From: Cuniculiplasma divulgatum
GTDB lineage: Archaea; Thermoplasmatota; Thermoplasmata; Thermoplasmatales; Thermoplasmataceae
DNA: 32,000 nt
Direction of reading: 5' to 3'
NCBI RefSeq assembly: GCF_900083515.1
Contig: NZ_LT671858.1
Span: 1,740,001-1,772,000, forward strand
Under the pieces are notes generated by a model, which saw only the letters and a list, made by a program, of their open reading frames with translations, made no database searches and was not told where the DNA came from. The position numbers and the translations under genes were made by a program. This document shows, one piece after another, positions 2,285 to 24,188 of the stretch. Position 1 is the stretch's first letter, and each line of letters starts with the position of its first letter.

Positions 2285-2324
2285 GTATTCCCTTAAAACA
2301 TTAATCAAATCCCGACCGGTCCAT
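2285..2324 (+). repeat. 40-nt array repeat, copy A (40/40 to consensus)
   Basis: GTATTCCCTTAAAACATTAATCAAATCCCGACCGGTCCAT read directly; intergenic, 150 nt from the 3' end of the MFS gene. Confidence 0.9.
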
Positions 2325-2473
2325 TCTATAACAATTAGAGAAAAAGATGGTTTTTACAACATAACCGAGGTTCGTTTAGTGCGGAATCATAGAATATGAG
2401 GAGTTCTCGTGCTGCACATTTTTCGGAAATTCAATAGAAAATAAATAAACGTGGCTGCAATCTTTCGATGCAA

Positions 2474-3727
2474 CTAAAGAATGTGAAGACACACCTCCTT
2501 TGACATTGGGAATTTATAAGAAAGTACCAAAGTAGCAGCAACCACGTTTAGAGCCAATAGAATAAGAACGATATCTTTTGAGCCTATGGAAATGAATGAA
2601 CCTATGCTCAGGCCGATGGACATTGCGACCGTACCCTGCAATGTCCTCAGAGCAGAACCAACAATCCTGTTTTCCTGTCCAAGACTGTTCATGGTGTAGG
2701 ATGTGTTTGATGTGGTTGCAAGGCCCGATGCAATCCCAAGGAGAATTTCTGCAAGAATCAAGTTTATAAATATGGAAAAGGAAAACAGCGCCATTGTCAG
2801 AAAAGCAAGCATTGGTACAACTTTTCTACCAAACCTGTCGGAAGCTTTCCCTCCAGCAAGAGAAAAGAATGTGAATGACAACGGAAACAGGAGTATAAGA
2901 AGACCGTATTGGAGTGAATTGTAACCCAGATATGCATAAAGAAAAACGAGATAAGCAGCGAAGCTGTTTCTCGTTATTGAATGAAGGAAACCACTGAGAC
3001 TCGATTTCACGTATTCTCTTGGCAATCTCACCCTAGAACTCATTATCAGACCAATAGCCATCACTGCTATCCCTGCCCAAATATTTAATGCCAGTAACAC
3101 AACACCGGATAGTGCAAGGCTCGGTCCAAATGCGCGGCGTCCGATTGATGAAGCTTTCCTTATGTCCTCAATTCTCAAGGCAAAAGCAAGGCAAACCAGT
3201 GCCAGCAATGAAGAGACCAGGAAAAGCACTTTCCAGTCAAGGAGAGCAACGAAACCGCCTACTGGCAATCCGATTACATATCCTAAGCTCACTATGGTAT
3301 GATTTGTCCCTATGGCGCTACCTCTGCTTGCGTCATCACCGATGCTTGAGGCATATGCAAGGGATGTTGGCAACACTATGGATGCGCCAACAGCCTGTAT
3401 CATTCTGAAAAACTCAATTTCAATGAAGCTGGAACTGAAGAAAATAAGGAATCCCCCCGCCGCCAGCAGGGCACCTCCAAAAATCATGCCCAGTTTGAGG
3501 CTAATCCTTTCAAAAATCATGGCAAACGGAACAAATAGAAACGCCTCTATTGCCACGTAGATAGTAACAAGTAAAGAAGCCTGAAGGTGAGAGATGCCGA
3601 AATAGTCAGAAAGTACCGGAACAGCAACCAGTATCATGGTTGCCTCGAATGTGGAAATAAATCCCAGAAGAGATGCAACCACTATGTCCTTACCGTTCAT
3701 TCTTGACCCTTGAAGAATAAAACTCAT
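2474..3727 (-). CDS. MFS-type transporter (about 12 TM segments)
   Basis: 417 aa, uniformly hydrophobic with repeated helices, and an MFS-like loop DRFGRKV. Overlaps the stop of the upstream SnoaL-like gene by 4 nt, suggesting an operon. Confidence 0.75.
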   Translation of the reverse strand: MSFILQGSRMNGKDIVVASLLGFISTFEATMILVAVPVLSDYFGISHLQASLLVTIYVAIEAFLFVPFAMIFERISLKLGMIFGGALLAAGGFLIFFSSSFIEIEFFRMIQAVGASIVLPTSLAYASSIGDDASRGSAIGTNHTIVSLGYVIGLPVGGFVALLDWKVLFLVSSLLALVCLAFALRIEDIRKASSIGRRAFGPSLALSGVVLLALNIWAGIAVMAIGLIMSSRVRLPREYVKSSLSGFLHSITRNSFAAYLVFLYAYLGYNSLQYGLLILLFPLSFTFFSLAGGKASDRFGRKVVPMLAFLTMALFSFSIFINLILAEILLGIASGLATTSNTSYTMNSLGQENRIVGSALRTLQGTVAMSIGLSIGSFISIGSKDIVLILLALNVVAATLVLSYKFPMSKEVCLHIL

Positions 3728-4137
3728 TGGAGTTGTCTAATAACGTCTAACATGTTGTAATAGGCTCTTTCCTCCTTTATAAGATTGCTACTGTCCAGTA
3801 TCATGACGTCTACACCTTCATATTCAATTTTCTTAGGTTCAGTAACCTTGTTGCGCCCATATCTTTGCCCTTGAAATGTACCTTTCCCAATCCATTCTCC
3901 GAATCCTATGCTTCCATTCCATACGGTTCTAAGTAACTTGAACTCAAAATCAGGAATAGAATTCCACAATCCTTTAAGGTAGAGTTCGAATTGATTTTTT
4001 CCACTAACTATTCTTGGTTCTTCCCCTTGATGTTTGTAAACGATATCTTCCGCATATAATTCCAAAAGTTGATCAGTTGTATGATAGTTCCATCCTTTCA
4101 TAAATTTTCTTTCAAAAGATTCACGATCAAAAGCCAT
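3724..4137 (-). CDS. SnoaL/NTF2-like small protein (ester-cyclase-like fold)
   Basis: 137 aa; the pattern LLELYAEDIVYKHQG ... GKNQFELYLKGLWNSIPDFEF is typical of SnoaL-like polyketide-cyclase family proteins. Confidence 0.55.
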   Translation of the reverse strand: MAFDRESFERKFMKGWNYHTTDQLLELYAEDIVYKHQGEEPRIVSGKNQFELYLKGLWNSIPDFEFKLLRTVWNGSIGFGEWIGKGTFQGQRYGRNKVTEPKKIEYEGVDVMILDSSNLIKEERAYYNMLDVIRQLQ

Positions 4138-4264
4138 GTCGGTTACAACTGACCATTATATTTACGGTTGTCGCTATATTTCCCTCTTATCCCAATTAGT
4201 ACTCCTCAATCATACCGTTCATCGGTTTCGCCATGTCGGTTTTAGTGCATAAGATTTTTGCATA

Positions 4265-4304
4265 GTATTCCCTTAAAACTTTAATCAAATCCTGTTCGGT
4301 CCAT
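4265..4304 (+). repeat. 40-nt array repeat, copy B (36/40)
   Basis: GTATTCCCTTAAAACTTTAATCAAATCCTGTTCGGTCCAT; lies in the divergent intergenic region between the SnoaL-like gene and vapB. Confidence 0.9.
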
Positions 4305-4399
4305 TGTGTGCATTGAATGATTCATGCAACATATTACAGACCAATCTTGTGTCTTGATATCCAGTCCAACTCCACAGTTTACACTTGCGTTTTGTATTG

Positions 4400-4449
4400 T
4401 TGTGGAATACTTTAGAAATTATTCCCACAAATATACAGAATTCCCACAA
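4400..4449. promoter_or_regulatory. candidate vapBC operator: inverted plus direct repeats of ATTCCCACAA
   Basis: TTGTGGAAT (4400-4408) is the near-perfect inverse of ATTCCCACAA (4421-4430). ATTCCCACAA recurs at 4440-4449, 29 nt before the vapB ATG. Confidence 0.35.
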
Positions 4450-4477
4450 TCTTAATTAGTCTGTTCTGTATCATCAT

Positions 4478-4756
4478 ATGGCAATGATTGAAGAGGCAAA
4501 ATTGGATGAAAAGGGACGAATTAACATAGGTCAAGAATCGAGAACATTATATGGGGACAGATTTTATGTTATCAAATTGTCTGGAGAGATTCTGCTAATT
4601 CCCAAGCCCAAAGATCCTGTTACTGAGTTACGAAAGTGGGGCAAAAAACTCGGTCTCGGCAAGCAAACGGCAAGAGATACCAGAATGTTGGCTGTGGACG
4701 AGGCAAACAAAGAAGTTGAAGAAAGGACCAACAGAAGACAAAAGGATATGCGATAA
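4478..4756 (+). CDS. vapB: AbrB/SpoVT-fold antitoxin (VapB-like)
   Basis: N-terminal LDEKGRINIG swapped-hairpin motif; 92 aa; its stop is immediately followed by the PIN toxin start. Confidence 0.75.
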   Translation: MAMIEEAKLDEKGRINIGQESRTLYGDRFYVIKLSGEILLIPKPKDPVTELRKWGKKLGLGKQTARDTRMLAVDEANKEVEERTNRRQKDMR

Positions 4757-5128
4757 ATGCCATACGCTGATACAGATTTCTTCATCGCAATTTCGAATTC
4801 AAATGATGGGTTGAACAATTGGGCTATCAAAGCACTGGAAAATTATAAGGGAACAATCTTCACTTCTATGCTTACCCTGGTAGAACTAGCGCTGGTAAGC
4901 GTCAGGAAAGGAGTACCCACCGAAGGCATGATTGCTAGCGTCCTATCCATTGCTGAACTGAAAGGGGCCAGTAAACAAAATGCTTTGGCAGCAGCACACC
5001 TTATCGATCACGAAGGTGTGGGTGTCTTTGACGCGTTCCACGCATCACTGTGTGAGGGTGAGATAATAAGCTCAGATCATATATATGAGAAGCTTGGTGT
5101 TAAGCGGGCGGGATCTGATTATCTCTGA
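4757..5128 (+). CDS. vapC: PIN-domain toxin (VapC-like)
   Basis: Acidic PIN positions are visible (YADTDFFI, TLVELAL, FDAFHA, ISSD); 123 aa; directly downstream of the antitoxin. Confidence 0.8.
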   Translation: MPYADTDFFIAISNSNDGLNNWAIKALENYKGTIFTSMLTLVELALVSVRKGVPTEGMIASVLSIAELKGASKQNALAAAHLIDHEGVGVFDAFHASLCEGEIISSDHIYEKLGVKRAGSDYL

Positions 5129-5188
5129 CATCAATCCCAGATGGGGAAAGTATTACGCCAAAATGAAATCTTAGAAGATTGTAGTATG

Positions 5189-5228
5189 GCATTCCCTTAA
5201 AACAATAAGCAAATCCCGACCGGTCCAT
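5189..5228 (+). repeat. 40-nt array repeat, copy C (37/40, ACAATAAGC variant)
   Basis: GCATTCCCTTAAAACAATAAGCAAATCCCGACCGGTCCAT; begins 61 nt after the vapC stop. Confidence 0.9.
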
Positions 5229-5278
5229 CTTTTCTATATCAAAAAATGCTCTGAATTACAGTGTTTACTGATGAATGG

Positions 5279-5312
<34 letters not shown>

Positions 5313-5328
5313 ATTTGTTTCTATTATT

Positions 5329-6264
5329 ATGGGTAGCAGAAAGCAGGAACTCACAATGTCGGAAGTAGTACGAGTGGTAAAGGATAAAGATGAAATAAAA
5401 ACTGAGGTTATTACTTACAAGAAACCTAGAAAGATCTCTCCAAAAATTCAAACGCCTCAAACATTTGCTAATAGTGGTGTGAAAAACATTTCTCTAATTT
5501 TTTCTGATAAGACCCAAAATTACACTATGTCATTTCGAGAGATGGATTATGAACTTTCAGAGGAAAAAATATCTCAGTCGGGAAAAGCTTACTCATTATA
5601 CTTTGAGATTGCCGATGATGAGGCCATAATATACTTAGAAGGGAGTATAGTTCCACTTGAAAACAACAAAGGCGCATTGTTTCTATCCATCAACGTTTCA
5701 CCAAAGGACCTAAACCATGTTGACCTTTTCGCTTTACCAATAAGCATAAATTATAAAGGAGACTTTTTATCGGTTGCAAAAGACTTAAGTTTTGTTATAA
5801 ACAAATTAGATAACGGTGTTTCAGAAAAGAGAAAGTGGATTTACAATAAAATGGCGCATCTTCTGAGCGCTTTTCCTGAAGTATATGACAACAACCGAAA
5901 TAAATTGAAGCCAATTGATGTGATGGAACTATCTTACAAGGTGACCTTAATGGATTTTAATTTTACATGTTGCCTTGAGAATGCATTGAGTCTCACGGAT
6001 TGCGTTCTCAGTGTTCCTGACATTGAGGAGATATGCGCAGAGTGTCTAGTTTTACCTGATTGTCTCGCAGCTTGCTTTGATTTTTTAACGTTACCTGCTT
6101 GTCTTATATGCTTTAGTCTTGATGTTCTTGCATGTGCCTATTGTATTTATAAAGCAGGGGAGTGCACTGAGTGGTCTGCCCCCTTAAATAGTGAGACAAA
6201 GTTGTCCTATAGGGTTAAATATATATTAAGAGATGAATTAAAGGGGGTCTGGGGGGAACAATGA
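5329..6264 (+). CDS. hypothetical protein with an extremely Cys-rich hydrophobic C-terminus; 3' end displaced by an IS3 insertion (native sequence to 6171, resuming 7518-7560)
   Basis: ORF track. From 6172 on, the residues come from the IS3 left end. Removing 6172-7517 plus one TGAG copy restores ...YKAGECTE-DAYNVIQCCTGA-stop (293 aa). Confidence 0.55.
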   Translation: MGSRKQELTMSEVVRVVKDKDEIKTEVITYKKPRKISPKIQTPQTFANSGVKNISLIFSDKTQNYTMSFREMDYELSEEKISQSGKAYSLYFEIADDEAIIYLEGSIVPLENNKGALFLSINVSPKDLNHVDLFALPISINYKGDFLSVAKDLSFVINKLDNGVSEKRKWIYNKMAHLLSAFPEVYDNNRNKLKPIDVMELSYKVTLMDFNFTCCLENALSLTDCVLSVPDIEEICAECLVLPDCLAACFDFLTLPACLICFSLDVLACAYCIYKAGECTEWSAPLNSETKLSYRVKYILRDELKGVWGEQ

Positions 6265-6563
6265 CAGAACGAAGAAGATGGAAAGCGGAAGAGAAGCTTG
6301 CCATAATAAAGGAGATCAAGGAGAGTGGCAAGGTTGTTGAAACGTGCAGGAAATACTCTGTAGATCCAGGCATGTACTACAAATGGAAGGAATCCTATGA
6401 TACCTTCGGACTGGATGGTCTTAAACCACATTACAGGAGAATGGAACCTGGAGTGAGAAAACTGATGAAGGAAAATGAAAAGCTGAAGACACTCCTTGCA
6501 GAAAAGGATCTGGAGAATGCACTGCTCAGTGAATCTATAAAAAAAAAGATGGTGAAGAGATAA
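6261..6563 (+). CDS. IS3 OrfA (HTH/leucine-zipper transposase part)
   Basis: RRWKAEEKLAIIKE...CRKYSVDPGMYYKWK is typical of IS3 OrfA. The slippery A-run AAAAAAAAAG at 6539-6548 precedes the stop. Confidence 0.9.
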   Translation: MTERRRWKAEEKLAIIKEIKESGKVVETCRKYSVDPGMYYKWKESYDTFGLDGLKPHYRRMEPGVRKLMKENEKLKTLLAEKDLENALLSESIKKKMVKR

Positions 6564-7474
6564 TGAACCTGGCAAATGAATACATTGGCAAAGGGTTGGG
6601 AATAAGCCACATTGCAGACCTTCTTCACATACCAAGGTGCAGCTTCTACCGGAATGGTGTATTCAGTGAAAGACAGTTGCTGAAGAGGGGGAGGCACAAC
6701 TCCCTCTTCACAATTAAGAGGGATGGCAATGAAACAATCATGGTGGATAACAGCATTGTGGTGGATGAAATGGAGAAACTTCTCTCAAGGGGGTTTGTCT
6801 GTTATGGATACAAGAAAACTGCAAAACAGATCAATCGAAATGGATATGAAATCAACAGGAAGAAGGTCAGGAGACTCATGTCAGAGAATAATCTTCTGAA
6901 CCACTCATACAATAAGAGAAAGCCGGTAACAAGAGTTGTGCAGTCCACTGTTGAGGTTACGGGTCCGGATCAGGTGTGGGAATTCGACATAAAGTATGTC
7001 TGGATCCATGGGGAATCCAGGAATGCCTATCTTCTTGCAATGATTGACTGTTACACCAGGGAGGTTGTTGGTCACTATTTGGGATATCACTGCACCGGTA
7101 ACGATGTGAAAGAAACAATGGCCTCTGCATTTGATCGAAGAGGGTTGGAGAATATCTCAGGCGTTCGTATGAGAAGCGATAACGGCACACAGTTTATATG
7201 CAATACTGTGGAGAATTTCCTCTCAATGATGAACATCCCGCATGAGAGGATCCATCCAGCAACTCCGAAGGAAGATGCACACATAGAATCGTTCAACTCA
7301 ATTCTGGAGAGGGAAGTCATAAGAAGATTCGAGTTTGATTTCTTTGATGAAACGAAATCAACAATCGAGAGATTCGTGGATTTCTATAACAACGAGAGGC
7401 TGCACACTGCCATAGGATATATTGCACCAAGGGAGAGGAATGAAAAATGTATGGAAAAGATTCAGAAAGCTTGA
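6563..7474 (+). CDS. IS3 OrfB (DDE/rve integrase-type transposase), in the -1 frame relative to OrfA
   Basis: WEFDIKYV, MRSDNGTQF and EDAHIESFNSILERE give the D, D(35)E motif. Confidence 0.9.
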   Translation: MNLANEYIGKGLGISHIADLLHIPRCSFYRNGVFSERQLLKRGRHNSLFTIKRDGNETIMVDNSIVVDEMEKLLSRGFVCYGYKKTAKQINRNGYEINRKKVRRLMSENNLLNHSYNKRKPVTRVVQSTVEVTGPDQVWEFDIKYVWIHGESRNAYLLAMIDCYTREVVGHYLGYHCTGNDVKETMASAFDRRGLENISGVRMRSDNGTQFICNTVENFLSMMNIPHERIHPATPKEDAHIESFNSILEREVIRRFEFDFFDETKSTIERFVDFYNNERLHTAIGYIAPRERNEKCMEKIQKA

Positions 7475-7586
7475 AATGTTATAAGACAATAATGTCTCCA
7501 ATTAGGGGACCTAACCATGAGGATGCTTATAATGTAATTCAATGTTGCACTGGGGCTTAATAAGATTAAGGGAAGGGGGAGTAAAC

Positions 7587-7982
7587 ATGAGATATGAGAA
7601 CATCTATAAGTCCCTTCTTTTTTATATTGTTGGTTTAGCCCTTCTATATCTGTCAATATTTTTATCTTACAACCTAAAGTTTGATGGACATTTCATATCA
7701 GCATTGCCAATAGTTTTACCATTGGTTTTTTCCATAGCCTCTATTGGTGTGGCAGTTATTCTTATAATGGAAAAAGATTCCCCTTGGTTTTTTAGAACTG
7801 GCATTATGAGTTTAGTTGGTGGAATCACTTTATTTTCATTCGGTATTCTAACATTCTACTTAGGAGTAAAATCCTTAGTATGGGCAGGTTCATTTGTAGT
7901 TGGTATAATGTTTATTTTTGCTGCGATGGTTCGATTATTCATTCAGGGTGGTTTGAGTGCATACAGAAAAAGCAGGAATTAG
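7587..7982 (+). CDS. small integral membrane protein (about 4 TM)
   Basis: ORF track frame 7542-7982. The ATG at 7587 follows a GGGGGAG purine tract and avoids overlap with the restored upstream ORF end (7560). Strongly hydrophobic. Confidence 0.5.
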   Translation: MRYENIYKSLLFYIVGLALLYLSIFLSYNLKFDGHFISALPIVLPLVFSIASIGVAVILIMEKDSPWFFRTGIMSLVGGITLFSFGILTFYLGVKSLVWAGSFVVGIMFIFAAMVRLFIQGGLSAYRKSRN

Positions 7983-8175
7983 AACATTATTCCCATCAAT
8001 ATTTGGAATTATATTTCTGATTTCAGGTGTTGTGGGTTTATTAGGATCTTTTAATGTTCAAACATTCTATTCATTTGGTACTTTGATTTCCGTAGTTTCC
8101 ATTATCGCTGGAGTGTATTTTATTCTGAGTACTCACATAAGTAGGAAGAATAGAGTTAAATGGAGTACCAAATAA
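7957..8175 (+). CDS. small membrane protein (2 TM, basic tail)
   Basis: ORF track; hydrophobic helices followed by SRKNRVKWSTK; overlaps the previous ORF end. Confidence 0.4.
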   Translation: MHTEKAGIRTLFPSIFGIIFLISGVVGLLGSFNVQTFYSFGTLISVVSIIAGVYFILSTHISRKNRVKWSTK

Positions 8176-18881: not shown

Positions 18882-18937
18882 GAGACTTCAACATTGGCAT
18901 TGGTAAATAACTTTTGCAGATCATGGGCACTCAGTGC

Positions 18938-18977
18938 GTATTCCCTTAAAACTTTAATCAAATCCCGACCGGTCCAT
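18938..18977 (+). repeat. 40-nt array repeat, copy E (39/40)
   Basis: GTATTCCCTTAAAACTTTAATCAAATCCCGACCGGTCCAT; between the start of the 472-aa ORF and the 3' end of relE. Confidence 0.9.
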
Positions 18978-19032
18978 TCTTACTGAAATTGTCTTTCGTG
19001 ATTTTAAAATACTATATAAAAAGGGAGGCTTG

Positions 19033-19287
19033 TCATTTGTAGATGTTCCTTCTGTGACCCAGTGATCTGACAACTATAACTCTCCTATTTTCTTCAATGT
19101 CGGCAATCACCCTGTAGTCACCGACTCGAAGCTTGTACTCGGTCCTCCCGACCAACCTGACAAAGAACCTGTGTGGATCACTTCTAGTGCTTTCTATTTT
19201 CTGGATAATCCTCTTAGCTAAGGGAATGTCCATGCCTCGAAGCTGAAAAAGAGATTCCTCTGAAAATTCAACTTCAAAGTTTGTCAC
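19033..19287 (-). CDS. relE: RelE/ParE-family toxin
   Basis: 84 aa; ...YKLRVGDYRVIADIEENRRVIVVRSLGHRRNIY is the canonical RelE/StbE C-terminal signature. Confidence 0.85.
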   Translation of the reverse strand: MTNFEVEFSEESLFQLRGMDIPLAKRIIQKIESTRSDPHRFFVRLVGRTEYKLRVGDYRVIADIEENRRVIVVRSLGHRRNIYK

Positions 19288-19526
19288 TGTATTCCCAACT
19301 GTTTCTTCACTTCTTCTACTGTGTGGGTCTTCTTCTCTTTCACATCAAGGAGACCCCTAAGCAGAGATGCCCTGAAATCCTCAGTGTAAACCCCCTCATC
19401 ATCACCCTCAGGAATTAGTGACATGAGTGCATTCAGCAACTCATCATATGTCATTCTCTTGTATGCCCTTAGTCCATTCAGTTTCTCTCTTGTGGATCGG
19501 CTAATCTGTATGGTTGTATAATCCAT
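19284..19526 (-). CDS. ribbon-helix-helix-like antitoxin partner of RelE
   Basis: MDYTTIQISRSTREKL... N-terminal beta-strand motif. 4-nt overlap with the relE start. ATG at 19524-19526 preferred over the track start at 19592 because the intervening DNA carries phased TGTATA repeats. Confidence 0.7.
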   Translation of the reverse strand: MDYTTIQISRSTREKLNGLRAYKRMTYDELLNALMSLIPEGDDEGVYTEDFRASLLRGLLDVKEKKTHTVEEVKKQLGIQ

Positions 19527-19553
19527 GTATATACCTTGTATACCCAATGTATA
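19515..19553. promoter_or_regulatory. four TGTATA hexamers at exact 11-bp spacing over the relBE start/upstream region
   Basis: TGTATA at 19515-19520, 19526-19531, 19537-19542 and 19548-19553. Confidence 0.3.
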
Positions 19554-19658
19554 ATTGCAATATAATTCTTGCCTTTTCGTCAATTTATACACGGGTGCAG
19601 TAATGTTTGGGCATTATGAGATAAGGGATAGTTTTCTTATATTCATGTAAAGCAGAAA

Positions 19659-19698
19659 GTATTCGCTTAAAACAATAAGCAAATCCCGACCGGTCCAT
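19659..19698 (+). repeat. 40-nt array repeat, copy F (37/40, ACAATAAGC variant)
   Basis: GTATTCGCTTAAAACAATAAGCAAATCCCGACCGGTCCAT. Confidence 0.9.
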
Positions 19699-19861
19699 CC
19701 TAACTATGGTAGAACTCTCCTATTGACGAAAGTATTAAAATAAGTTCGTTTGCAAGTAATCCAGAACTCAAATAATTCAAACGTATTACGGTACATAACG
19801 TGTATAAGCACATAAATCGTTATATGTAGAATATAGATGACATATAATACCTAAATCAAAA

Positions 19862-19987
19862 TCCACAACGATTCAACTGGACAGGTCTGTTGTAGATGCT
19901 CTTAAAAAACTTAAAATATATCGACGGGAGACTTATAGCGAGATCATTCTTAATCTCATAAAAGTACTGAAGAAACAAATGAGTTAG
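19862..19987 (+). pseudogene. RHH-like antitoxin paralogue without a canonical start codon
   Basis: Reads STTIQLDRSVVDALKKLKIYRRETYSEIILNLIKVLKKQMS-stop, similar to the antitoxins at 19284-19526 and 22976-23197. The frame opens after TGA 19838-19840 with no ATG/GTG/TTG. Confidence 0.4.
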
Positions 19988-20062
19988 AATCCTTTGTACA
20001 AAATGCCTAGGAAGAGAAGATGAAACAGCTCTGGGAAAAAGGTGATTACTCGGGATGGGAAC

Positions 20063-20317
20063 ATGCCTGAACCATGCGATGTTGTAATAACAAGGGTGAA
20101 ATTTACCGATTCTGATGATTCTAAAATTCGTCCCATCCTTATATTGTTAGAGGAATGAGGTGGTGTTGTCCTAGCTTGGATCACAACTAACAGAAGAATG
20201 AACGGTATAATAATATCCCGGAGTTATGAAGCTGCTCAGGATAGTGTGATGAAATTGAATTATATCTTTACCATTACAAATAAAGCAATAATTAAAACAG
20301 TATTTCATTTGAATTAA
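20063..20317 (+). pseudogene. MazF/PemK-like toxin gene with an in-frame TGA (20156-20158) and a premature TAA
   Basis: MPEPCDVVITRVKFTDSDDSKIRPILILLEE-stop-GGVVLAWITTNRR...SVMKLNYIFTITNKAIIKTVFHLN fits the MazF pattern (GD.V...F.......K.RP..VL ... ITT ... S.V....I.TI). The homologous copy at 23891-24073 reads on past the TAA. Confidence 0.55.
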
Positions 20318-20557
20318 GAAAAATAAATTTGGTTTTTGACGAGCTCTCAAAAAGTTTTTTGCATTGAAATATGATTGATAAATTCCTGTTATTAAAATTT
20401 TTTGAGGAAAAATCCATCAGGCTTGCAATTTGGAGAATATCACCACAATGAAGTATACATGCCAGATGTGTGAACCACATTTATATCTAAACCCTCATTT
20501 AGACTCACGATCCATAAATTATTTATCATTGTCTCACTCTGCTGGAAGCATCACTTA

Positions 20558-20592
20558 TAGTCTCTTTAAAACTCTATCAAATTGTACATCAT
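20558..20592 (+). repeat. possible degenerate copy (H) of the array repeat
   Basis: TAGTCTCTTTAAAACTCTATCAAATTGTACATCAT; the CTTTAAAACTCTATCAAAT part matches CCTTAAAACTTTAATCAAAT at about 16/20; intergenic, 45 nt before the ATPase start. Confidence 0.35.
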
Positions 20593-20636
20593 ACTAAACA
20601 TAAATTATAATAATATGTACAGTATACTATACAATA

Positions 20637-21944
20637 ATGGTAACAGTTGAAGATTTTAAGTACGTTTTAACGCTCTGGAATGGCCACAAAATACCTGGCC
20701 TTATAGAACGTGATATAAAAGTTGATCTAGATTCAAATAAGATAATTGCTATTGCCGGGTCAAGACGATCGGGAAAAACCTATGTAATGTTTCAATGCAT
20801 TAATGACCTTTTAAAAAAAGGCGTTAAGAAAGATAATATCCTTTATATCAACTTTGAGAACGAGAGACTTGTTGGAATAACAGCTATCAATCTAGACAAC
20901 CTTCTTATAGCCCATAGGGAGCTGTTCAATTCTGACGGGATAATGTACGTTTTTCTTGACGAAATACAGATTGTTGAGAACTGGGATAAATGGGTCAGGA
21001 AGATCTACGATACTGGGAAGTATCGTGTAATAGTAACAGGTTCCTCTTCTGAATTACTTAGTAGCGAAATAGCCACTTCACTTGCAGGAAGGAACCTCAC
21101 ATATATTGTGTACCCTTTCTCTTTCAAAGAATATGTTGATGCACAGGGCCTGAAAATTAACAAACTGCAAAAATATTCTTTTGAAAAAGGGGTAATTCTT
21201 AAGGCAATGAATGATTTTTTGGAGTTTGGATCATTTCCCGAAATAGCAATGACATCAAGCATATCCAGAAAACTGGAGATACTTTCATCTTACTTTGATG
21301 CAATTTTCTTCAAGGACATAGTTAGAAGGTATGGAATTAGGGATGTTGGAGATTTAAACATATTTCTCAAAATTCTCTCCAGCAGCTACGCCTCATATTT
21401 CAGTTCGGTAAAGTTGTTTAATTATTTCAAAAGTACTGGGAGAAAGATAAGTAGAGTTACATTGCTAAACTTCCTTGATTACTCGAGATCGGTTTTTCTT
21501 CTGAGTCTACTTGAGAAGTATGAAAAGAGCGTAAGAAAGCGTATTTCAATGCAATCAAAGACTTATATAATAGACACTGGTATTTCCAGACTTTTCTCTG
21601 ACATTGATAAGGGCAGGGCACTGGAAAATGCAGTTTTCATCGAGTTATCCAGAAGAAAAGAACCTATAGAGAGCATAAACTATCTTAAGCTTAAATCCGG
21701 TAAAGAAGTGGACTTCATTGTAGGCGGCAAAAATGGTGAGATCATACAGGTATCTTGTGAAGTGTCCCTACTAAGTACAAGATCTCGAGAAACCTCTGCA
21801 CTTGTGGAGGCTGCAAAGGGTCTTGGGCTGAAGTCCGGGAAAATAATAACCTACGATTATGAAGGAGAAGAATTAATTGATGGAATTTTAATTCATTACA
21901 TCCCATTCTGGGCTTGGGCTTTATATGATACAAAGCAAAAGTGA
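20637..21944 (+). CDS. AAA+ ATPase of the AAA_14/DUF4143 type
   Basis: Walker A GSRRSGKT and Walker B VFLDEIQ followed by W.KW. Length and C-terminal region are typical of this family. Confidence 0.8.
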   Translation: MVTVEDFKYVLTLWNGHKIPGLIERDIKVDLDSNKIIAIAGSRRSGKTYVMFQCINDLLKKGVKKDNILYINFENERLVGITAINLDNLLIAHRELFNSDGIMYVFLDEIQIVENWDKWVRKIYDTGKYRVIVTGSSSELLSSEIATSLAGRNLTYIVYPFSFKEYVDAQGLKINKLQKYSFEKGVILKAMNDFLEFGSFPEIAMTSSISRKLEILSSYFDAIFFKDIVRRYGIRDVGDLNIFLKILSSSYASYFSSVKLFNYFKSTGRKISRVTLLNFLDYSRSVFLLSLLEKYEKSVRKRISMQSKTYIIDTGISRLFSDIDKGRALENAVFIELSRRKEPIESINYLKLKSGKEVDFIVGGKNGEIIQVSCEVSLLSTRSRETSALVEAAKGLGLKSGKIITYDYEGEELIDGILIHYIPFWAWALYDTKQK

Positions 21945-22004
21945 GTTTATCCTCAAGATAATCCACAAAACTCTCGCTGTCCTGCTAGATATGTGTTACA
22001 TTTG

Positions 22005-22034
22005 GAATATCTCTTTAAAAGTTTGATCAAGTTC
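22005..22034 (+). repeat. possible degenerate copy (I) of the array repeat
   Basis: GAATATCTCTTTAAAAGTTTGATCAAGTTC; shares TAT-TC-CTT-AAAA-TTT-ATCAA with the consensus and TCTCTTTAAAA.T.T..TCAA.TT with copy H; intergenic. Confidence 0.3.
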
Positions 22035-22104
22035 AATACTATTCTTTGATCCCATAGTTATGAATGTGCAACCTGTCCGTTTAGCAAGATGAATAGGGAT
22101 ATAT

Positions 22105-22392
22105 ATGTATGAATTCACTCATCATATTATGGTAGGGTTTCATCCAATAAACAAGACTATGACTGTTGAAACCTTTATGTTCATAAGTTCAATGGTTGTA
22201 ATCGCGCTCGGAGCGCTGTTTCATTACCTACACTACTCTGCCTCAGTTTACCTTCCACTCTTCTTTTATGGTCTGGGAATATTCTTGCTTTTAGCAATAA
22301 TATTGTTCATTGGAACACTGCTGGCAGCAAAGAGTGGCAAGTTGCAGAAAAGAACGAGCGACATATGGAATAACAAAAAAGAGAAGCAATGA
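22105..22392 (+). CDS. small membrane protein (2-3 TM, basic tail)
   Basis: ORF track; hydrophobic helices then KSGKLQKRTSDIWNNKKEKQ; same layout as 7957-8175. Confidence 0.45.
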   Translation: MYEFTHHIMVGFHPINKTMTVETFMFISSMVVIALGALFHYLHYSASVYLPLFFYGLGIFLLLAIILFIGTLLAAKSGKLQKRTSDIWNNKKEKQ

Positions 22393-22431
22393 CCTTCGGC
22401 TCTTTGCCCCGGTTGATTTTAAAATCTAACA

Positions 22432-22575
22432 TGAATCGTTATCTTTATCATACATTATTCGTCTTCATTTTGTCAGCTGTTGCTTCAAATAATCAATGAT
22501 ATGGTCTTCATCTAAAAAATTCCACCGATTATCTGTATCTCCTTTAACTTACCTATGCAATAGGGAACATTCGCC
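22432..22575 (+). pseudogene. decayed paralogue of the MNRYLYH small membrane gene (8178-8387)
   Basis: ATGAATCGTTATCTTTA(T/C)CA shared start. Premature stop after 22 codons. Nucleotide similarity resumes (GATTATCTGTATC...TAGGGAACA versus GATTACCTCTACA...TAGGGAACA) and ends near 22575. Confidence 0.5.
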
Positions 22576-22782
22576 TCGTGCCCATGCGAGTGCTTGTTCA
22601 ATTGCTATGCGTGGATGGCTATCATCTGGTCTCTCCTCCTGGAAAAGATGAAGCACATGCTGAGCGCAATCAGCTGCCCACTTCGCAATAAGACGATGAT
22701 CAGAGTCATTAAGCGTTCCACCTCGACGTATGGTTACAAGCCTAAGATTCCGTCTCTTTTCAAAAATGTTCTGCTTGTCCAT
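22576..22782 (-). pseudogene. N-terminal fragment of a protein resembling a bacterial family annotated as putative immunity protein (WAADCA.HVL...RP..AIE.A.AWARGE)
   Basis: Track ORF 22549-22782. The family-like sequence ends at ...AWARGE, and the last residues are read from the neighbouring pseudogene. Locally more GC-rich than its flanks. Family assignment is from memory only. Confidence 0.35.
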
Positions 22783-22844
22783 AATAAGCCTCTCATACAG
22801 AATATTATACTGGGAGAACTTACGAATGTTTTTCCTTTTTGTGG

Positions 22845-22882
22845 TTATTGAGATAATACTTTAATCAGATCCAAATATCCAG
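22845..22882 (+). repeat. possible degenerate copy (J) of the array repeat
   Basis: ACTTTAATCAGATCC (22858-22872) matches ACTTTAATCAAATCC at 14/15 and is followed by ...ATCCAG where GGTCCAT is expected; intergenic. Confidence 0.35.
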
Positions 22883-22975
22883 ACACATTCTAAGCTGTAA
22901 ATCTGCCATATCGACCCCATTGAGATAAAAGTTCTGTATGACAAAACTTTATACTATCGATCACTATAGGCAACT

Positions 22976-23197
22976 GTGACTATTTCAACAATACAGGTAA
23001 AGCAAGAAACAAAGAAAACACTACAGTCAATGAAACTGCATCCTAGAGAAACATATGAGGAAGTAATAGAAAGGATGATTGAGGATCTTAACGAACTAAA
23101 CGAGGAGACTATAAGGGAGGTGGAAGAAGCTAGACGTGAAATCGAATCTGGCAAATTTGTCACCCACGAACAACTGAAGAAGGACCTAGGTCTTTAA
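22976..23197 (+). CDS. RHH-like antitoxin (GTG start)
   Basis: TISTIQVKQETKKTLQSMKLHPRETYEEVI..., paralogous to 19284-19526; overlaps the relE start by 1 nt (TAATG). Confidence 0.75.
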   Translation: MTISTIQVKQETKKTLQSMKLHPRETYEEVIERMIEDLNELNEETIREVEEARREIESGKFVTHEQLKKDLGL

Positions 23198-23451
23198 TGG
23201 ATTATAGAATAGTATGGTCCATTCAGGCATCCAAGCAGTTGGAACGCCTTGACAGGTCAGTTGCCAAGAGGATTCATGAAAAAGTTGGACAATTGTATCA
23301 AAACCCAGAAAGGTATGTTGAGAAACTTGTTAGATATCAATACTACAGGCTTAGGGTAGGGGATTATAGAGTGATTCTTGATATTCAAAATGAAATGGTT
23401 AGAATATTGATTTTAAAAGTCGGACACAGGAGCAATGTCTATGAAAGGTAA
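23197..23451 (+). CDS. relE: RelE/ParE-family toxin
   Basis: YYRLRVGDYRVILDIQNEMVRILILKVGHRSNVY signature. Confidence 0.85.
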   Translation: MDYRIVWSIQASKQLERLDRSVAKRIHEKVGQLYQNPERYVEKLVRYQYYRLRVGDYRVILDIQNEMVRILILKVGHRSNVYER

Positions 23452-23465
23452 TTTTCTATTCCTTA

Positions 23466-23505
23466 ATATTCGCTTAAAACATTAATCAAATCCCAACCAG
23501 TCCAT
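23466..23505 (+). repeat. 40-nt array repeat, copy G (36/40)
   Basis: ATATTCGCTTAAAACATTAATCAAATCCCAACCAGTCCAT; begins 15 nt after the relE stop. Confidence 0.85.
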
Positions 23506-23554
23506 TTTACGAACTTCATTTATATCGAATTTGCCACATATTTTTGGATTTCTT

Positions 23555-23782
23555 CTATTGTTTGTCTTTGGATTCTAACCGGAGAGTATCGTCATAGTAC
23601 TCCCGTTCTCGCCTGGTCAGACCATTTTCAAAATCAATGCTTCCTCTTAAGGACTCAAGTATATTCTCCTTGCTCTGCGATTTTACCAATCTATCCAGAA
23701 GTTCGCTAAAACTCTCATTTTCCTTTTTGAATGCATGTAATTCTTCTTAAACTGACTTTTTTATGGAAATGGTTTTGGTCGT
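23555..23782 (-). pseudogene. RHH-like antitoxin paralogue with an in-frame TAA and no start codon
   Basis: Minus strand reads TTKTISIKKSV-stop(23747-23749)-EELHAFKKENESFSELLDRLV...REREYYDDTLRLESKDKQ-stop. Confidence 0.4.
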
Positions 23783-23890
23783 TACATGTGTTTATGTTTA
23801 AACATTACATTAATTTTTATAACCTCCTCGACAAAATTATTTTATTATATCATATTTTATTCTCTCACCGTAAATTTTACTCAAACATGA

Positions 23891-24073
23891 CAAAACTATA
23901 ATGCCATTACGAATGAAGGGGCTGCTCATGATAGCATGATTAAATTGAACTATATCTTTACAATCACAAATGCAGCCATAATTAAAACAGTATTTCGACT
24001 GAGCCCAGAAAAAAGGAATTTGGTTTTTGACGAACTCATGAGTGGGTTTTCTGCTCTGAGATTTTCTTGGTAA
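23891..24073 (+). pseudogene. C-terminal fragment of a MazF-like toxin, paralogous to 20063-20317
   Basis: About 115 nt (23921-24037) align at roughly 80 percent with 20231-20346. It reads ...DSMIKLNYIFTITNAAIIKTVFRLSPEKRNLVFDELMSGFSALRFSW-stop. The frame opens directly after a TGA and the N-terminal half is absent. Confidence 0.55.
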
Positions 24074-24163
24074 TAGAATGCTTAATTTTTTGAACCGTTT
24101 AAATCTCGTTTCTTTTGTTAAAACAGTAATTGGGTATTCGGTATTGAGCAAACATTCTTTTTT

Positions 24164-24188
24164 TTCTCTTTTAGTTTGATCACTTTGA
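24164..24188 (+). repeat. possible degenerate copy (L) of the array repeat (H/I subtype)
   Basis: TCTCTTTTAGTTTGATCACTTTGAC versus copy I TCTCTTTAAAAGTTTGATCAAGTTC; intergenic. Confidence 0.25.

What the first reader, a model, noticed from the sequence alone, without database searches (positions are those of the whole stretch)
2285..24188. Same-orientation 40-nt repeat punctuating a ~22 kb cassette-like array (integron-like, but not classical attC)
Seven copies of GTATTCCCTTAAAACATTAATCAAATCCCGACCGGTCCAT lie at 2285, 4265, 5189, 8387, 18938, 19659 and 23466. Each matches the consensus at 36-40 of 40 positions. All seven are on the + strand regardless of the orientation of the flanking genes. 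All are intergenic (one begins on a stop codon), and conservation ends sharply after ...GGTCCAT. They cut the region into units of 1-4 genes: MFS+SnoaL (-), vapBC (+), a Cys-rich ORF plus small membrane ORFs (+), relBE (-), relBE (+), and others. TA modules, gene fragments and eight IS-derived segments are concentrated among the repeats, and the repeats stop before the housekeeping block starting near 25.1 kb. This is the architecture of a sedentary integron cassette array, or of serial site-specific integrations. However, the repeat shows no RYYYAAC/GTTRRRY pair and no long imperfect hairpin, only the 8-bp palindrome GACCGGTC. No tyrosine or serine recombinase gene lies in the window. I do not recognise the repeat as a described element.
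Basis: partly seen in the sequence, partly recalled or inferred. Interest (0 to 1): 0.85.

Follow-up and report, generated by a model that had tools for sequence, protein, structure and literature searches.

The report
tRNA-Ala attachment-site array of mobile cassettes
The seven repeats are attachment-site scars, each made of a 21-base element arm and the last 19 bases of a tRNA-Ala gene, left where an archaeal integrating plasmid and many tiny integrase-less gene cassettes stacked up behind that tRNA gene; the result looks like an integron but arises by a different, broadly known route.

Summary
Seven same-strand copies of a sharply bounded 40-41-nt repeat lie at the stated positions, and none is expected by chance.

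The window is from Cuniculiplasma divulgatum, a Thermoplasmatales archaeon. The last 19 nt of the repeat (CAAATCCCGACCGGTCCA+T) match the 3' end of tRNA-Ala, from the T-loop to the discriminator base. The first 21 nt are an element-derived arm, called P here.

In related strains and about 75 other Thermoplasmata genomes, the same repeat forms one-orientation arrays headed by a complete tRNA-Ala(CGC) gene.

One strain has an emptier site. There the tRNA is joined directly to the unit that follows copy 19659 in the window, and homology starts at the first tRNA-derived base.

A 429-aa tyrosine integrase sits right after the tRNA in several strains, including strain PM4. It is at least 89% identical across Cuniculiplasma, Acidiplasma and Ferroplasma. 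It is preceded by an arm, P', that is an inverted repeat of P (17 of 21 bases).

So the 40-mers are attR-type sites. The array was built by serial integration at the tRNA. Most units (median 1.1 kb) lack an integrase and reassort between genomes as discrete cassettes carrying toxin-antitoxin, defence and transporter genes.

It is not an integron: there is no hairpin and no IntI. It is a new archaeal variant of tandem accretion with cis-mobilizable elements.

The parts
2285..2324 (+). 40-mer copy 1 (attR-type site). Bases 2285-2305 are the P arm. Bases 2306-2324 are the tRNA-Ala 3'-end core (O) plus T.
   Evidence: Exact match to the consensus. The unit to its left is a decayed relative of the integrase-bearing element.
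4265..4304 (+). 40-mer copy 2; 36 of 40 bases match, with three mutations in the O part (CCTGTTCGG).
   Evidence: It ends the MFS+SnoaL unit. The same unit in L016 ends in a 40-mer with a consensus tRNA-derived part.
5189..5228 (+). 40-mer copy 3, with the P-arm variant AATAAG.
   Evidence: The AATAAG variant also follows the related PIN cassette in L047 and L061 (L060 has AATAAT), but not in L056.
8387..8426 (+). 40-mer copy 4.
   Evidence: It ends the Cys-rich/membrane-ORF unit, which is also present in strain PM4 (L078) without the IS3 insertion.
18938..18977 (+). 40-mer copy 5.
   Evidence: From this point on the window is 99.2% identical to L078-L083. Upstream of it each strain carries a different unit and a different P-arm variant.
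19659..19698 (+). 40-mer copy 6. This site has an emptier counterpart in another strain.
   Evidence: In L077 a complete tRNA-Ala(CGC) occupies this position. Homology window 19680-32000 = L077 3723-16047 starts at the first tRNA-derived base. The junction GGTCCA|TCCTAACTATGG is identical.
23466..23505 (+). 40-mer copy 7, the last and most decayed copy (36 of 40); distal end of the array.
   Evidence: It is present in all C. divulgatum strains examined. Beyond it lie ORF-poor DNA with cassette-like remnants (23.5-24.1 kb) and the 174-aa gene (24316-24840, -), then the syntenic GNAT and mtn genes from 25160.
1..2284 (.). Distal end of a decayed integrase-element-like unit, interrupted by an IS630 copy and a fragment (329-2024).
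   Evidence: L086 is 100% identical to window 1-1571 and extends 4 kb to the left with no repeat or tRNA. Its 206-aa gene is a 31-38% homologue of the 213-aa gene that follows int429. IS630 identification.
2325..4264 (.). Cassette: MFS transporter + SnoaL-like protein (genes on the - strand).
   Evidence: Pfam. Absent from PM4-like strains exactly between repeats. An 86% homologue in L016 ends at a 40-mer.
4305..5188 (.). Cassette: antitoxin + PIN toxin (genes on the + strand).
   Evidence: Pfam. This cassette family occurs in 5 loci with 5 different neighbour pairs. It aligns almost end to end with L056 (89% identity, at most 13 nt unaligned at the left ends, none at the right ends).
5229..8386 (.). 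Cassette: 311-aa Cys-rich ORF plus small membrane ORFs, with an IS3 insertion at about 6172-7517.
   Evidence: The same 1789-bp unit without the IS occurs in L028, L053, L065, L078 and L079.
8427..18937 (.). 10.5-kb IS-ridden unit. It holds a TnpB fragment, IS3, an IS110 fragment, DUF302, a methyltransferase, an IS630 fragment, IS4, and 366-aa and 472-aa ORFs.
   Evidence: Absent from the other C. divulgatum strains examined.
18978..19658 (.). Cassette: DUF7557 antitoxin + ParE/RelE toxin (genes on the - strand).
   Evidence: Pfam. Present in L078-L083 and absent in L077. An 82% homologue occurs in L066.
19699..23465 (.). Probably composite unit. It holds a remnant small-ORF module (about 19810-20357), an AAA_14/DUF4143 ATPase, a 95-aa ORF, and DUF7557 + ParE (genes on the + strand).
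   Evidence: Pfam. Its sub-parts match separate cassettes in L011, L017, L054, L004 and L032.

Best explanation
The 40-mers are attR-type attachment sites of a family of tRNA-Ala-specific integrative elements of acidophilic Thermoplasmatales. Each site has two parts. One is a 21-nt element-side arm, P (GTATTCSCTTAAAACWWTAAK). The other is the 18-19-nt core, O, which copies the 3' end of tRNA-Ala from the T-loop to the discriminator base.

The parent element is a plasmid-like island of at least about 15 kb. Its genes run int429, 213 aa, 175 aa, a VirB4/CedD-like ATPase, ParA, a resolvase, Orc1/Cdc6, then cargo.

Its attP reads P - O - P', with P and P' as inverted repeats. Its 429-aa tyrosine integrase recombines O with the identical end of a chromosomal tRNA-Ala gene. 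That leaves tRNA|P'-int...cargo-P-O.

Each later arrival at the tRNA pushes older units downstream. All P-O sites therefore point the same way, and the array ends at the original tRNA flank, which here is the housekeeping block.

Most units in the window and elsewhere are 0.6-3 kb cassettes. They keep a P-O site at their right end but have no integrase and no P' arm.

I infer that they move in two ways. They may be carried out together with an upstream integrase element that uses a downstream P-O as an alternative attR (accretion, or cis-mobilization). Or they may move as circles formed by recombination between two P-O sites, which re-enter at any O.

Shown: the tRNA origin of O; arrays headed by the tRNA; the emptier-site versus filled-site junction; the integrase and the P/P' inverted repeat; gain, loss and reassortment at the level of whole cassettes.

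Inferred: that int429 acts on these sites, where the crossover lies within O, and how integrase-less cassettes are excised and first formed.
For: (1) The repeat occurs almost only in Thermoplasmata: 75 loci. A profile search finds 166 copies, and within every locus all copies lie on one strand.

(2) The last 19-21 nt also hit the 3' end of a full tRNA-Ala(CGC). That tRNA always lies at the 5' head of the array on the same strand, in L006, L007, L015, L026, L044, L057, L067, L077 and L095-L103.

(3) Emptier site. L077, the same species with an identical MtnB, has purN-RFC-helicase-tRNA-Ala joined directly to the unit that follows window copy 19659. Homology starts at window 19680, the first base of O.

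(4) One species shows at least 6 array configurations between identical flanking genes. The P-arm variant changes with the upstream unit, while O and the right flank stay constant.

(5) The 90 complete units span 589-10511 bp, median 1147. Homologous units from different genomes always share the same orientation. In the clearest families (the 1.92-kb, about 760-bp and 708-bp units) they align end to end, with about 0-10 nt unaligned. Other pairs share only part of a unit. They have different neighbours.

(6) int429 (PF00589, 31.8 bits) starts about 48 nt after the tRNA in L095, L098 and PM4 (L105). Full copies, or copies cut by a contig end, follow the P' arm in L095, L098, L105-L114, L071 and L115; decayed remnants follow it in L024, L065 and L068; L007 and L025 keep the arm with no detectable int429.

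(7) P' (TTTAATCTATTAATCGAATAC) matches the reverse complement of P at 17 of 21 positions. Among 20000 random 21-mers scored against P', only three reached 14 or more matches, and one of those (21 of 21) was evidently a genuine P' arm, since the sample was drawn from the same loci.

(8) The distal end of the integrase element is a 40-mer. L020 (resolvase, Orc1, Mtase, MjaI, 40-mer) is collinear with the end of L105 at 75% nt identity.

(9) The top 120 of 1865 int429 homologues are all at least 89% identical to the query and include proteins named from Cuniculiplasma, Acidiplasma and Ferroplasma. This matches the cross-genus conservation of the 40-mer.

(10) The logo of 120 non-redundant copies shows P as well conserved as O, and flanks at about 0.1 bit.
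Against: No recombinase and no tRNA lie in the window itself, so the link to int429 rests on related strains and genomes.

No single contig shows a complete int429 element with both ends. The distal end is inferred from collinearity.

Cassettes lack a P' arm: only 4-5 of about 150 copies have one. How a tyrosine recombinase would excise or insert a single cassette is therefore unexplained.

The 18-nt spacer between the P and P' arms is longer than a usual 6-8-bp overlap region, so the arms may be accessory sites rather than core sites.

The 40-nt identity could let homologous recombination do part or all of the cassette shuffling.

The origin of the precise left ends of cassettes is unknown.

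The conservation logo is partly biased, because one copy per locus was selected with a pattern covering positions 4-28.

No circular or excised forms were seen; this cannot be tested with these tools.
Confidence: 0.8

Rival explanations
1. It is an integron-type cassette array (a sedentary chromosomal integron, or a CALIN). The 40-mer would be an unusual attC site, recombined as folded single-stranded DNA by an IntI-like integrase.
For: The architecture looks alike: same-orientation sites punctuate 0.6-3 kb units rich in toxin-antitoxin genes, and variability is greatest near one end.
Against: Neither strand forms a hairpin (z about +0.5 to +1.1). There is no R''/L''-L'/R' symmetry. Half of the site is the tRNA-Ala 3' end. 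The associated integrase scores 39.8 bits against the XerA/integron-integrase model, whose cut-off is 220. It sits on a mobile plasmid-like element, not on a fixed platform with attI and Pc. Cassette genes lie in either orientation relative to the site, fixed within each family but differing between families.
Confidence: 0.03
2. The sites began as att scars, but cassette gain, loss and reshuffling is now driven mainly by homologous recombination between the 40-nt repeats (and the 19-nt tRNA end) after DNA uptake. Under this view no integrase acts on the small cassettes.
For: There is 36-40 nt of near-identity at every unit boundary. Cassettes have no P' arm. Most arrays have no integrase nearby. 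Units missing from strains are deleted exactly between repeats.
Against: The P arm is conserved as strongly as the tRNA part across genera, and it forms an inverted repeat with P' next to a highly conserved integrase. Both point to protein recognition. Cassettes abut the tRNA itself, where only 19 nt of homology is available. This reading does not explain how each cassette first acquired a P arm.
Confidence: 0.15
3. The small units are inert deletion remnants of full-size integrated elements and are not mobile. The shared units in other genomes reflect vertical inheritance, or transfer of whole islands.
For: Decay is evident: mutated O parts (copies 4265 and 23466), a degenerate copy in PM4, many IS insertions, and int429 pseudogene remnants.
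Against: The same cassette families recur with the same ends but different neighbours on both sides in several genomes: F0 in 8 loci and F1 in 5 loci. Strains with identical flanking proteins carry different head cassettes. Random deletion would not repeatedly trim units flush with ...GGTCCA on the left.
Confidence: 0.07
4. The 40-mer is a dispersed REP- or MITE-like repeat, or a regulatory or RNA element (promoter, terminator or small RNA) that happens to be clustered here.
For: The P arm contains a TATA-like TTAAAA preceded on the minus strand by a BRE-like ATTAAT (read from the sequence).
Against: All copies in every locus share one orientation and lie downstream of tRNA-Ala. Rfam gives no match and there is no structure. 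Distances from the repeat to gene starts are irregular (about 80-500 nt), and genes lie in either orientation.
Confidence: 0.03

Closest known systems
Dehalococcoides ssrA-specific genomic islands (McMurdie et al. 2011, PMC3146451)
   Same: Islands lie in tandem downstream of one small-RNA gene. Each is bounded by a roughly 20-bp direct repeat of that gene's 3' end. A further conserved motif (15 bp there, 21 nt here) lies just upstream of the repeat and does not match the target gene. Insertion is inferred in the T-loop. About half the islands lack an integration module and were interpreted as cis-mobilizable elements.
   Different: That system is bacterial and its target is tmRNA. Its recombinase is a CcrB-like serine recombinase that overlaps attL. 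Its islands are multi-kb and carry rdhA cargo. Here the host is archaeal, the target is tRNA-Ala(CGC or UGC), and the candidate recombinase is a tyrosine recombinase. The median unit is only 1.1 kb. The same cassettes reassort across genera.
CIMEs and site-specific accretion (ICESt1-type elements; reviewed in PMC5704250)
   Same: Integrase-less units that keep att sites sit in tandem with an integrase-bearing element at the 3' end of a target gene. They can be mobilized in cis when the composite excises.
   Different: CIMEs are described as decayed ICEs or IMEs with both attL and attR, and usually only one or two occur per site. Here there are up to 7 or more units per array. Each unit has only the attR-type P-O site, and the units recur as defined cassette families.
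Tycheposons of Prochlorococcus (Hackl et al., bioRxiv 10.1101/2020.12.28.424599)
   Same: They are tRNA-targeted elements that seed hypervariable islands. Successive integrations push older elements inward, separated by partial tRNA copies. Remnants and partial tRNAs are scattered through the islands.
   Different: Most described tycheposons carry their own integrase and replication module. No conserved extra arm or array of integrase-less cassettes around 1 kb was reported there. The host domain also differs.
Integron cassette arrays (attC/IntI)
   Same: The outcome is similar: an ordered, one-orientation array of small cassettes rich in toxin-antitoxin genes, with strain-level turnover.
   Different: There is no attC hairpin, no IntI/attI/Pc platform, and the sites are sequence-defined and contain tRNA. 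The recombinase travels on a mobile element.
Archaeal SSV-type (Phage_integr_3) integrase elements and 'gene capture' at tRNA genes (She et al. 2001; cited from my own knowledge)
   Same: Archaeal elements integrate at tRNA 3' halves and accumulate there. Members targeting tRNA-Ala lie inside these same arrays (L003 and L071, PF16795, E = 5e-50).
   Different: Those elements use an identity block of about 44-47 nt, starting at the anticodon loop and embedded in the int ORF. The 40-mer shares only the last 19 nt, and its arm is unrelated to that int gene.

Membership tests
tRNA-targeted integrative elements in tandem accretion (with CIME-like units) | The direct repeat contains the 3' end of the target tRNA gene. 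| tested here: met
   The last 19 nt of the 40-mer equal T-loop position 55 through the discriminator base of tRNA-Ala(CGC/UGC).
tRNA-targeted integrative elements in tandem accretion (with CIME-like units) | An intact target tRNA lies at one end of the array, in the same orientation as the repeats. | tested here: met
   Met in 7 GTDB loci and in C. divulgatum strains L077 and L095-L103. Not visible in the window itself, where the head lies left of position 1.
tRNA-targeted integrative elements in tandem accretion (with CIME-like units) | Empty versus occupied site polymorphism, with the breakpoint at the att core. | tested here: met
   L077 tRNA|TCCTAACTATGG versus window copy 19659|TCCTAACTATGG. 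Homology starts at window 19680.
tRNA-targeted integrative elements in tandem accretion (with CIME-like units) | A site-specific integrase is encoded next to an att site of at least some units. | tested here: met
   int429 (PF00589) starts about 48 nt after the tRNA or 40-mer in L095, L098, L105-L114 and L115. Remnants occur in L024, L065, L068 and L071. None lies in the window.
tRNA-targeted integrative elements in tandem accretion (with CIME-like units) | Integrase-catalysed excision and integration at these sites. | not testable with these tools
   This needs PCR or long reads for circles and empty sites, or in vitro recombination.
Integron / CALIN (attC cassette array) | The attC site is an imperfect hairpin with R''-L''/L'-R' boxes, 57-141 nt long. 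| tested here: not met
   The repeat is 40-41 nt. The best fold is -0.2 to -0.4 kcal/mol, no better than shuffles. There is no inverted symmetry within the repeat.
Integron / CALIN (attC cassette array) | An IntI integrase with attI and Pc on a fixed platform next to the array. | tested here: not met
   Upstream of the array lie purN, RFC, a helicase and tRNA-Ala. The only nearby tyrosine recombinase is far below the XerA/integron-integrase cut-off (39.8 versus 220 bits) and is part of a mobile element. This row excludes a complete integron only; a CALIN by definition lacks an integron integrase.
SSV-type 'suicidal' integrase elements (PF16795) | The att site lies inside the int ORF, and the identity block runs from the anticodon loop to the tRNA 3' end. 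| tested here: not met
   This holds for the separate elements in L003 and L071 (ORF starts MDRSGFEPEASCLQS, antisense to the tRNA) and for L090 at tRNA-Thr (47-nt repeat). It does not hold for the 40-mer, which shares only 19 nt and reads MDRSGFD-stop on the antisense strand.
REP / MITE dispersed repeats | Copies are dispersed genome-wide, in both orientations, unrelated to one anchor gene. | tested here: not met
   All copies in each of more than 80 loci lie on one strand and in arrays behind tRNA-Ala. In the complete genome CP009479.1 the matches fall in two adjacent 8-kb blocks. A full-genome scan of C. divulgatum was not possible.
CRISPR array | Short repeats are regularly spaced by spacers of 25-70 nt. 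| tested here: not met
   Spacing is 589-10511 bp, and the units contain genes.
Xer/dif-type sites (IMEX, pdif modules) | A site of about 28 bp with two inverted 11-bp arms around a 6-8 bp spacer; orientation alternates in pdif modules. | tested here: not met
   The 40-mer has no such internal symmetry, only the 8-bp palindrome GACCGGTC (read from the sequence). All copies are direct.

The most novel reading that the evidence does not exclude
The tRNA-Ala locus of acidophilic Thermoplasmatales may work as a true archaeal analogue of an integron. Under this reading, cassettes of 0.6-3 kb without an integrase, each tagged only by the 21-nt P arm plus the tRNA-derived core, are excised and inserted one at a time by the int429 tyrosine integrase supplied in trans by a promiscuous integrative plasmid. 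That would create a shared cassette pool of toxin-antitoxin, defence and transport genes spanning several genera.
Probability: 0.3. Interest if true: 0.75.

Novelty: new variant of a known kind. Interest (0 to 1): 0.55.

Why it matters
This locus shows how one tRNA-Ala gene becomes the main hypervariable, defence-rich island of Cuniculiplasma and its relatives. Published genome papers list such islands only generically.

The analysis yields three usable things:
- a 40-nt marker that finds these arrays in any Thermoplasmata assembly;
- a candidate integrase whose attP appears simple, with a 21-nt inverted repeat around an 18-nt core;
- a set of defined cassettes that evidently move between Cuniculiplasma, Acidiplasma and Ferroplasma.

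If the small cassettes prove individually mobile, this would be a second route, independent of integrons, to a cassette-array architecture, and it would be in Archaea. The integrase and site pair could also serve as a genetic tool for acidophilic archaea, which lack such tools.

There is a practical point too. The repeats break short-read assemblies at every unit: contigs L076, L084 and L087 end in the repeat. These islands are therefore under-represented in metagenome-assembled genomes.

Tried and rejected
- Rfam and tRNA scans of the window found nothing.
- Folding the repeat as an attC-like hairpin gave no structure.
- A viral-contig scan for the 40-mer gave 0 hits, and a viral scan for the SSV-type integrase found no relatives.
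- I first suspected the SSV-type integrase found inside arrays (L003, L071) as the cognate enzyme. I rejected it because that family uses 44-47-nt identity blocks starting at the anticodon loop. Its relative in L090 is an ordinary 8.6-kb island at tRNA-Thr.
- I considered that the P arm derives from the 3' end of that int gene (a shared ATGTTTTAAG in one of three genes). I judged this to be chance in AT-rich DNA.
- I considered a promoter role for the P arm. Distances to start codons are irregular and gene orientations are mixed.
- Pfam scans of 20 large ORFs next to repeats found cargo (Schlafen/AlbA_2, DndB, Fic, MFS, peptidase A4, regulators). Apart from the two SSV-type integrase genes already noted in L003 and L071, they found no recombinase.
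- Look-ups to extend the window leftwards gave only short contigs, 4 kb at most, with no tRNA.
- An apparent circular tRNA in L114 was an artefact of ARAGORN's circular default.
- The one metagenome scan, for the full P-O-P' site, returned a single 2-kb contig. It was informative but showed no circular form.
- The label 'Acidiplasma aeolicum' on L065 first misled me about the source organism. Identical proteins later placed the window in Cuniculiplasma divulgatum.

Full report
**1.

The consensus 40-mer matches at 2285, 5189, 8387, 18938 and 19659 with 0-3 mismatches, and none is expected by chance. The repeat finder adds 4265 and 23466. That makes seven direct copies, all on the + strand, spaced 721-10551 bp apart.

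Aligned with 150-nt flanks, conservation begins at (G/A)TATTC and ends at GGTCCAT(T). The flanks are unrelated.

The window has no tRNA gene, no Rfam match and no recombinase gene.
- MFS+SnoaL, a PIN toxin-antitoxin pair and two ParE/DUF7557 pairs;
- an AAA_14 ATPase;
- many IS630, IS3, IS110, IS4 and TnpB pieces;
- housekeeping genes from about 25.1 kb.

Neither strand of the repeat folds better than shuffled sequence.

**2. Where else the repeat occurs**

I scanned one genome per prokaryotic species for TTCNCTTAAAACNNTAANCAAATCC. The scan returned 75 loci, almost all from Thermoplasmata: Ferroplasma, Acidiplasma, Cuniculiplasma and Caldiplasma relatives, plus many acid-site metagenome-assembled genomes.

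A profile built from the seven window copies finds 166 copies in these loci. Within every locus all copies lie on one strand.

The 90 complete inter-repeat units measure 589-10511 bp, with a median of 1147 bp. In a logo of 120 non-redundant copies, positions 1-41 are highly conserved and the flanks carry about 0.1 bit. One caveat applies: one copy per locus was selected by a pattern spanning positions 4-28.

**3. Half of the repeat is tRNA**

In several loci the profile also hits, with its last 19-21 positions only, the 3' end of a gene that ARAGORN calls tRNA-Ala(CGC). The sequence CAAATCCCGACCGGTCCA covers T-loop position 55 through the discriminator base.

In all seven such GTDB loci the tRNA is at the 5' head of the array and on the same strand as the repeats. 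Upstream of it are syntenic housekeeping genes: purN, the RFC small subunit and a Hef-like helicase.

The first 21 nt of the repeat (GTATTCSCTTAAAACWWTAAK) do not resemble the tRNA. I call this part the P arm and the tRNA-derived part O.

**4. Source organism and strain comparison**

The window's MtnB protein is identical to one in LT719092.1, which is Cuniculiplasma divulgatum PM4. The helicase next to the tRNA is named from C. divulgatum.

Contigs that carry the identical MtnB or helicase show at least six different arrays between the same flanks.

The key case is L077. There the order is purN, RFC, helicase, tRNA-Ala(CGC), followed directly by TCCTAACTATGG... and the AAA_14 unit. In the window the same junction follows copy 19659. 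The 99.2% homology between the two starts at window 19680, the first base of O. This is an emptier site compared with a filled site, with the breakpoint inside the tRNA-derived core.

Strains L078-L083 share everything from copy 18938 onward. Upstream of it each carries a different unit:
- the Cys-rich unit in PM4;
- a ResIII helicase plus an AAA_15/21 ATPase in L080;
- 575-aa and 180-aa genes in L082;
- the 10.5-kb IS-rich unit in the window.

The P-arm variant changes with the upstream unit, while O and the right flank do not. PM4-like sequences lack window 2325-5188, the MFS+SnoaL and PIN units, exactly between repeats.

**5. The units behave as discrete cassettes**

Homologous units from different genomes always have the same orientation relative to the repeat. 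In the clearest families they align end to end, with roughly 0-10 nt unaligned; other pairs share only part of a unit, some because an internal repeat has decayed. Examples:
- a 1.92-kb two-gene unit in L026 (directly after the tRNA), L043, L056 and L063, at about 88% identity;
- a PIN toxin-antitoxin unit of about 760 bp in eight loci;
- a 708-bp unit in L006 (after the tRNA), L021 and L045.

The same cassette family has different neighbours in different genomes. The family containing window 4305-5188 occurs in five loci with five different neighbour pairs.

The base after GGTCCA (T or C) and the following flank travel with the downstream cassette. P-arm variants tend to travel with the upstream one.

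Cargo consists of RelE/ParE and PIN toxin-antitoxin pairs, Fic, Schlafen/AlbA_2, DndB, restriction-modification genes and transporters.

**6. The recombinase**

Most arrays contain none.

An SSV-type integrase (PF16795, E = 5e-50) lies inside arrays in L003 and L071. Its ORF begins antisense within a 44-nt tRNA-Ala 3'-half fragment. A relative in L090 marks an ordinary 8.6-kb island at tRNA-Thr, bounded by a 47-nt repeat. This family therefore uses identity blocks that start at the anticodon loop. That does not match the 19-nt O, so I set it aside.

The better candidate came from the array heads in C. divulgatum. In L095, L098 and PM4 (L105) the tRNA is followed by TTTAATCTATTAATCGAATAC. About 48 nt after the tRNA end comes a 429-aa tyrosine recombinase, int429 (PF00589, 31.8 bits; distantly XerA-like). 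L099 and L102 show the same arm right after the tRNA, but those contigs end before any gene.

That 21-nt arm, P', matches the reverse complement of the P arm at 17 of 21 positions. Among 20000 random 21-mers scored against P', only three reached 14 or more matches, and one of those (21 of 21) was evidently a genuine P' arm, since the sample was drawn from the same loci.

Most 40-mers or tRNA fragments followed by a P' arm are also followed by int429, either intact (or cut only by a contig end) or as a decayed remnant. This holds in L024, L065, L068, L071 and the metagenome contig L115; L007 and L025 keep the arm with no detectable int429. Other cassette starts are not P'-like.

Downstream of int429 the element is plasmid-like. 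It encodes a VirB4/CedD-like ATPase, ParA, a serine resolvase and Orc1/Cdc6.

L020 is collinear with the end of L105 at 75% nt identity over resolvase and Orc1. It continues through a methylase and an MjaI-type endonuclease and ends in a 40-mer. I therefore infer that attP is P-O-P' and that the 40-mer is attR. No single contig shows both ends.

The same int429 protein sits after tRNA-Ala(CGC) or tRNA-Ala(UGC) in five different host contexts. All of the 120 closest homologues listed (of 1865 found) are at least 89% identical to the query; they include proteins named from Cuniculiplasma, Acidiplasma and Ferroplasma. This parallels the cross-genus conservation of the 40-mer.

The sample that yields a contig 100% identical to the left end of the window also yields a head contig with tRNA|P' (L099). 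The unit left of copy 2285 contains a distant homologue of the 213-aa gene that follows int429.

**7. Mechanism**

Shown:
- the repeats are att sites made of the tRNA-Ala 3' end plus an element arm;
- arrays grow from the tRNA;
- whole units are gained, lost and reassorted at ...GGTCCA;
- a conserved integrase with matching inverted-repeat arms sits at array heads.

Inferred:
- int429 recombines O of attP with the tRNA end;
- successive arrivals stack up, leaving P-O sites pointing one way;
- integrase-less cassettes move either with an upstream int429 element that uses a downstream P-O as an alternative attR, or as circles formed between two P-O sites;
- homologous recombination between the 40-nt repeats probably contributes.

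Unknown:
- the crossover position within O. Because identity begins in the T-loop, the site fits the T-loop sublocation class described for the ssrA islands;
- the role of the 18-nt spacing between the arms;
- how cassettes first acquire a P arm and a clean left end.

**8. Comparison with known systems**

The closest described system is the set of Dehalococcoides ssrA genomic islands. These are tandem islands bounded by a 20-bp copy of the tmRNA 3' end. A 15-bp motif that does not match ssrA lies just upstream of the repeat, insertion is inferred in the T-loop, and 15 of 31 islands lack an integration module and were read as cis-mobilizable elements.

The accretion and CIME concept and the tycheposons are also close.

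The present system differs in these ways:
- it is archaeal;
- it is associated with a tyrosine integrase carried on a plasmid-like element;
- its units are much smaller (median 1.1 kb);
- units carry only an attR-type site;
- units recur as cassette families across genera.

It is not an integron.

Literature searches found only generic island descriptions for these archaea, and nothing on this repeat or this integrase.

**9. Verdict**

It is best filed as a new archaeal variant of tRNA-targeted tandem accretion with cis- or trans-mobilizable cassettes.

Interest is moderate to high for specialists in mobile elements and archaeal genomics. It would rise further if single-cassette mobility by int429 were demonstrated.

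Noticed in passing
window 8427-9074 (- strand): A TnpB (IS200/IS605 OrfB) C-terminal fragment lies directly beside copy 8387. Its downstream non-coding end (...GCGAGGGGAGGATGTCAC...GGGCCCCTAATT) abuts the repeat at ...GGTCCAT|AATTAGGGG. The IS remnant therefore appears to have inserted right at the cassette start.
   Followed up: no
window 20231-20381 and 23921-24073: A direct repeat of about 150 nt at 78% identity. Both copies match small-ORF modules (74-aa and 105-aa genes) found in cassettes of L011 and L017. This suggests that the 3.8-kb unit, and the DNA after the last 40-mer, contain decayed cassettes whose own 40-mers are lost.
   Followed up: partly
window 5274-5325: An (AT)n microsatellite of about 40 nt lies just after copy 5189, ahead of the Cys-rich ORF.
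   Followed up: no
window 9905-9929 and 14063-14087: A 25-nt inverted repeat at 88% identity brackets 4.1 kb inside the IS-rich unit, from the IS3 left end to the IS630 HTH fragment. It may mark IS termini or a composite structure.
   Followed up: no
L003 2959-3792; L071 781-1614 and 5455-6273: SSV-type integrase genes (PF16795) whose first 15 codons (MDRSGFEPEASCLQS) are the antisense of the tRNA-Ala 3' half. A second subgroup (P0043) reads the same tRNA segment in another frame (WTGRDLNPRPPACKA) after an 11-aa leader. These are small int-plus-two-gene elements of about 2.5 kb nested in the 40-mer arrays.
   Followed up: partly
L065 (labelled Acidiplasma aeolicum VT contig_5), L028 (I-plasma), L053: These three loci carry different organism names but are 99.9-100% identical to each other over a 1789-bp cassette. 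They share about 96-97% identity with the window's left flank, as does C. divulgatum PM4. This indicates either very recent inter-genus transfer of this island or contamination or mis-binning.
   Followed up: no
L012, L014, L020, L024, L051: These copies have a normal P arm but a different core (CAAATCCGGTCGGGCCCA or CAAATCCGGCCAGGCCCA). This suggests a sister lineage of the element that targets a tRNA with a different acceptor stem.
   Followed up: no
L110 3651-7113: The 213-aa, 175-aa and 82-aa gene module directly after int429 is tandemly duplicated.
   Followed up: no
L076, L084, L087 (short-read contigs): Contigs start or end inside the 40-mer. L076 is exactly one cassette with the repeat at both ends. 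Assemblies break at every unit, and such contigs could be mistaken for circular elements.
   Followed up: partly
L108 2917-4161: A different 414-aa tyrosine integrase (Phage_int_SAM_1 plus PF00589) lies next to tRNA-Ser(UGA), 6 kb from the tRNA-Ala/int429 site. This would be a second tRNA-linked integration hotspot in the same genome.
   Followed up: no
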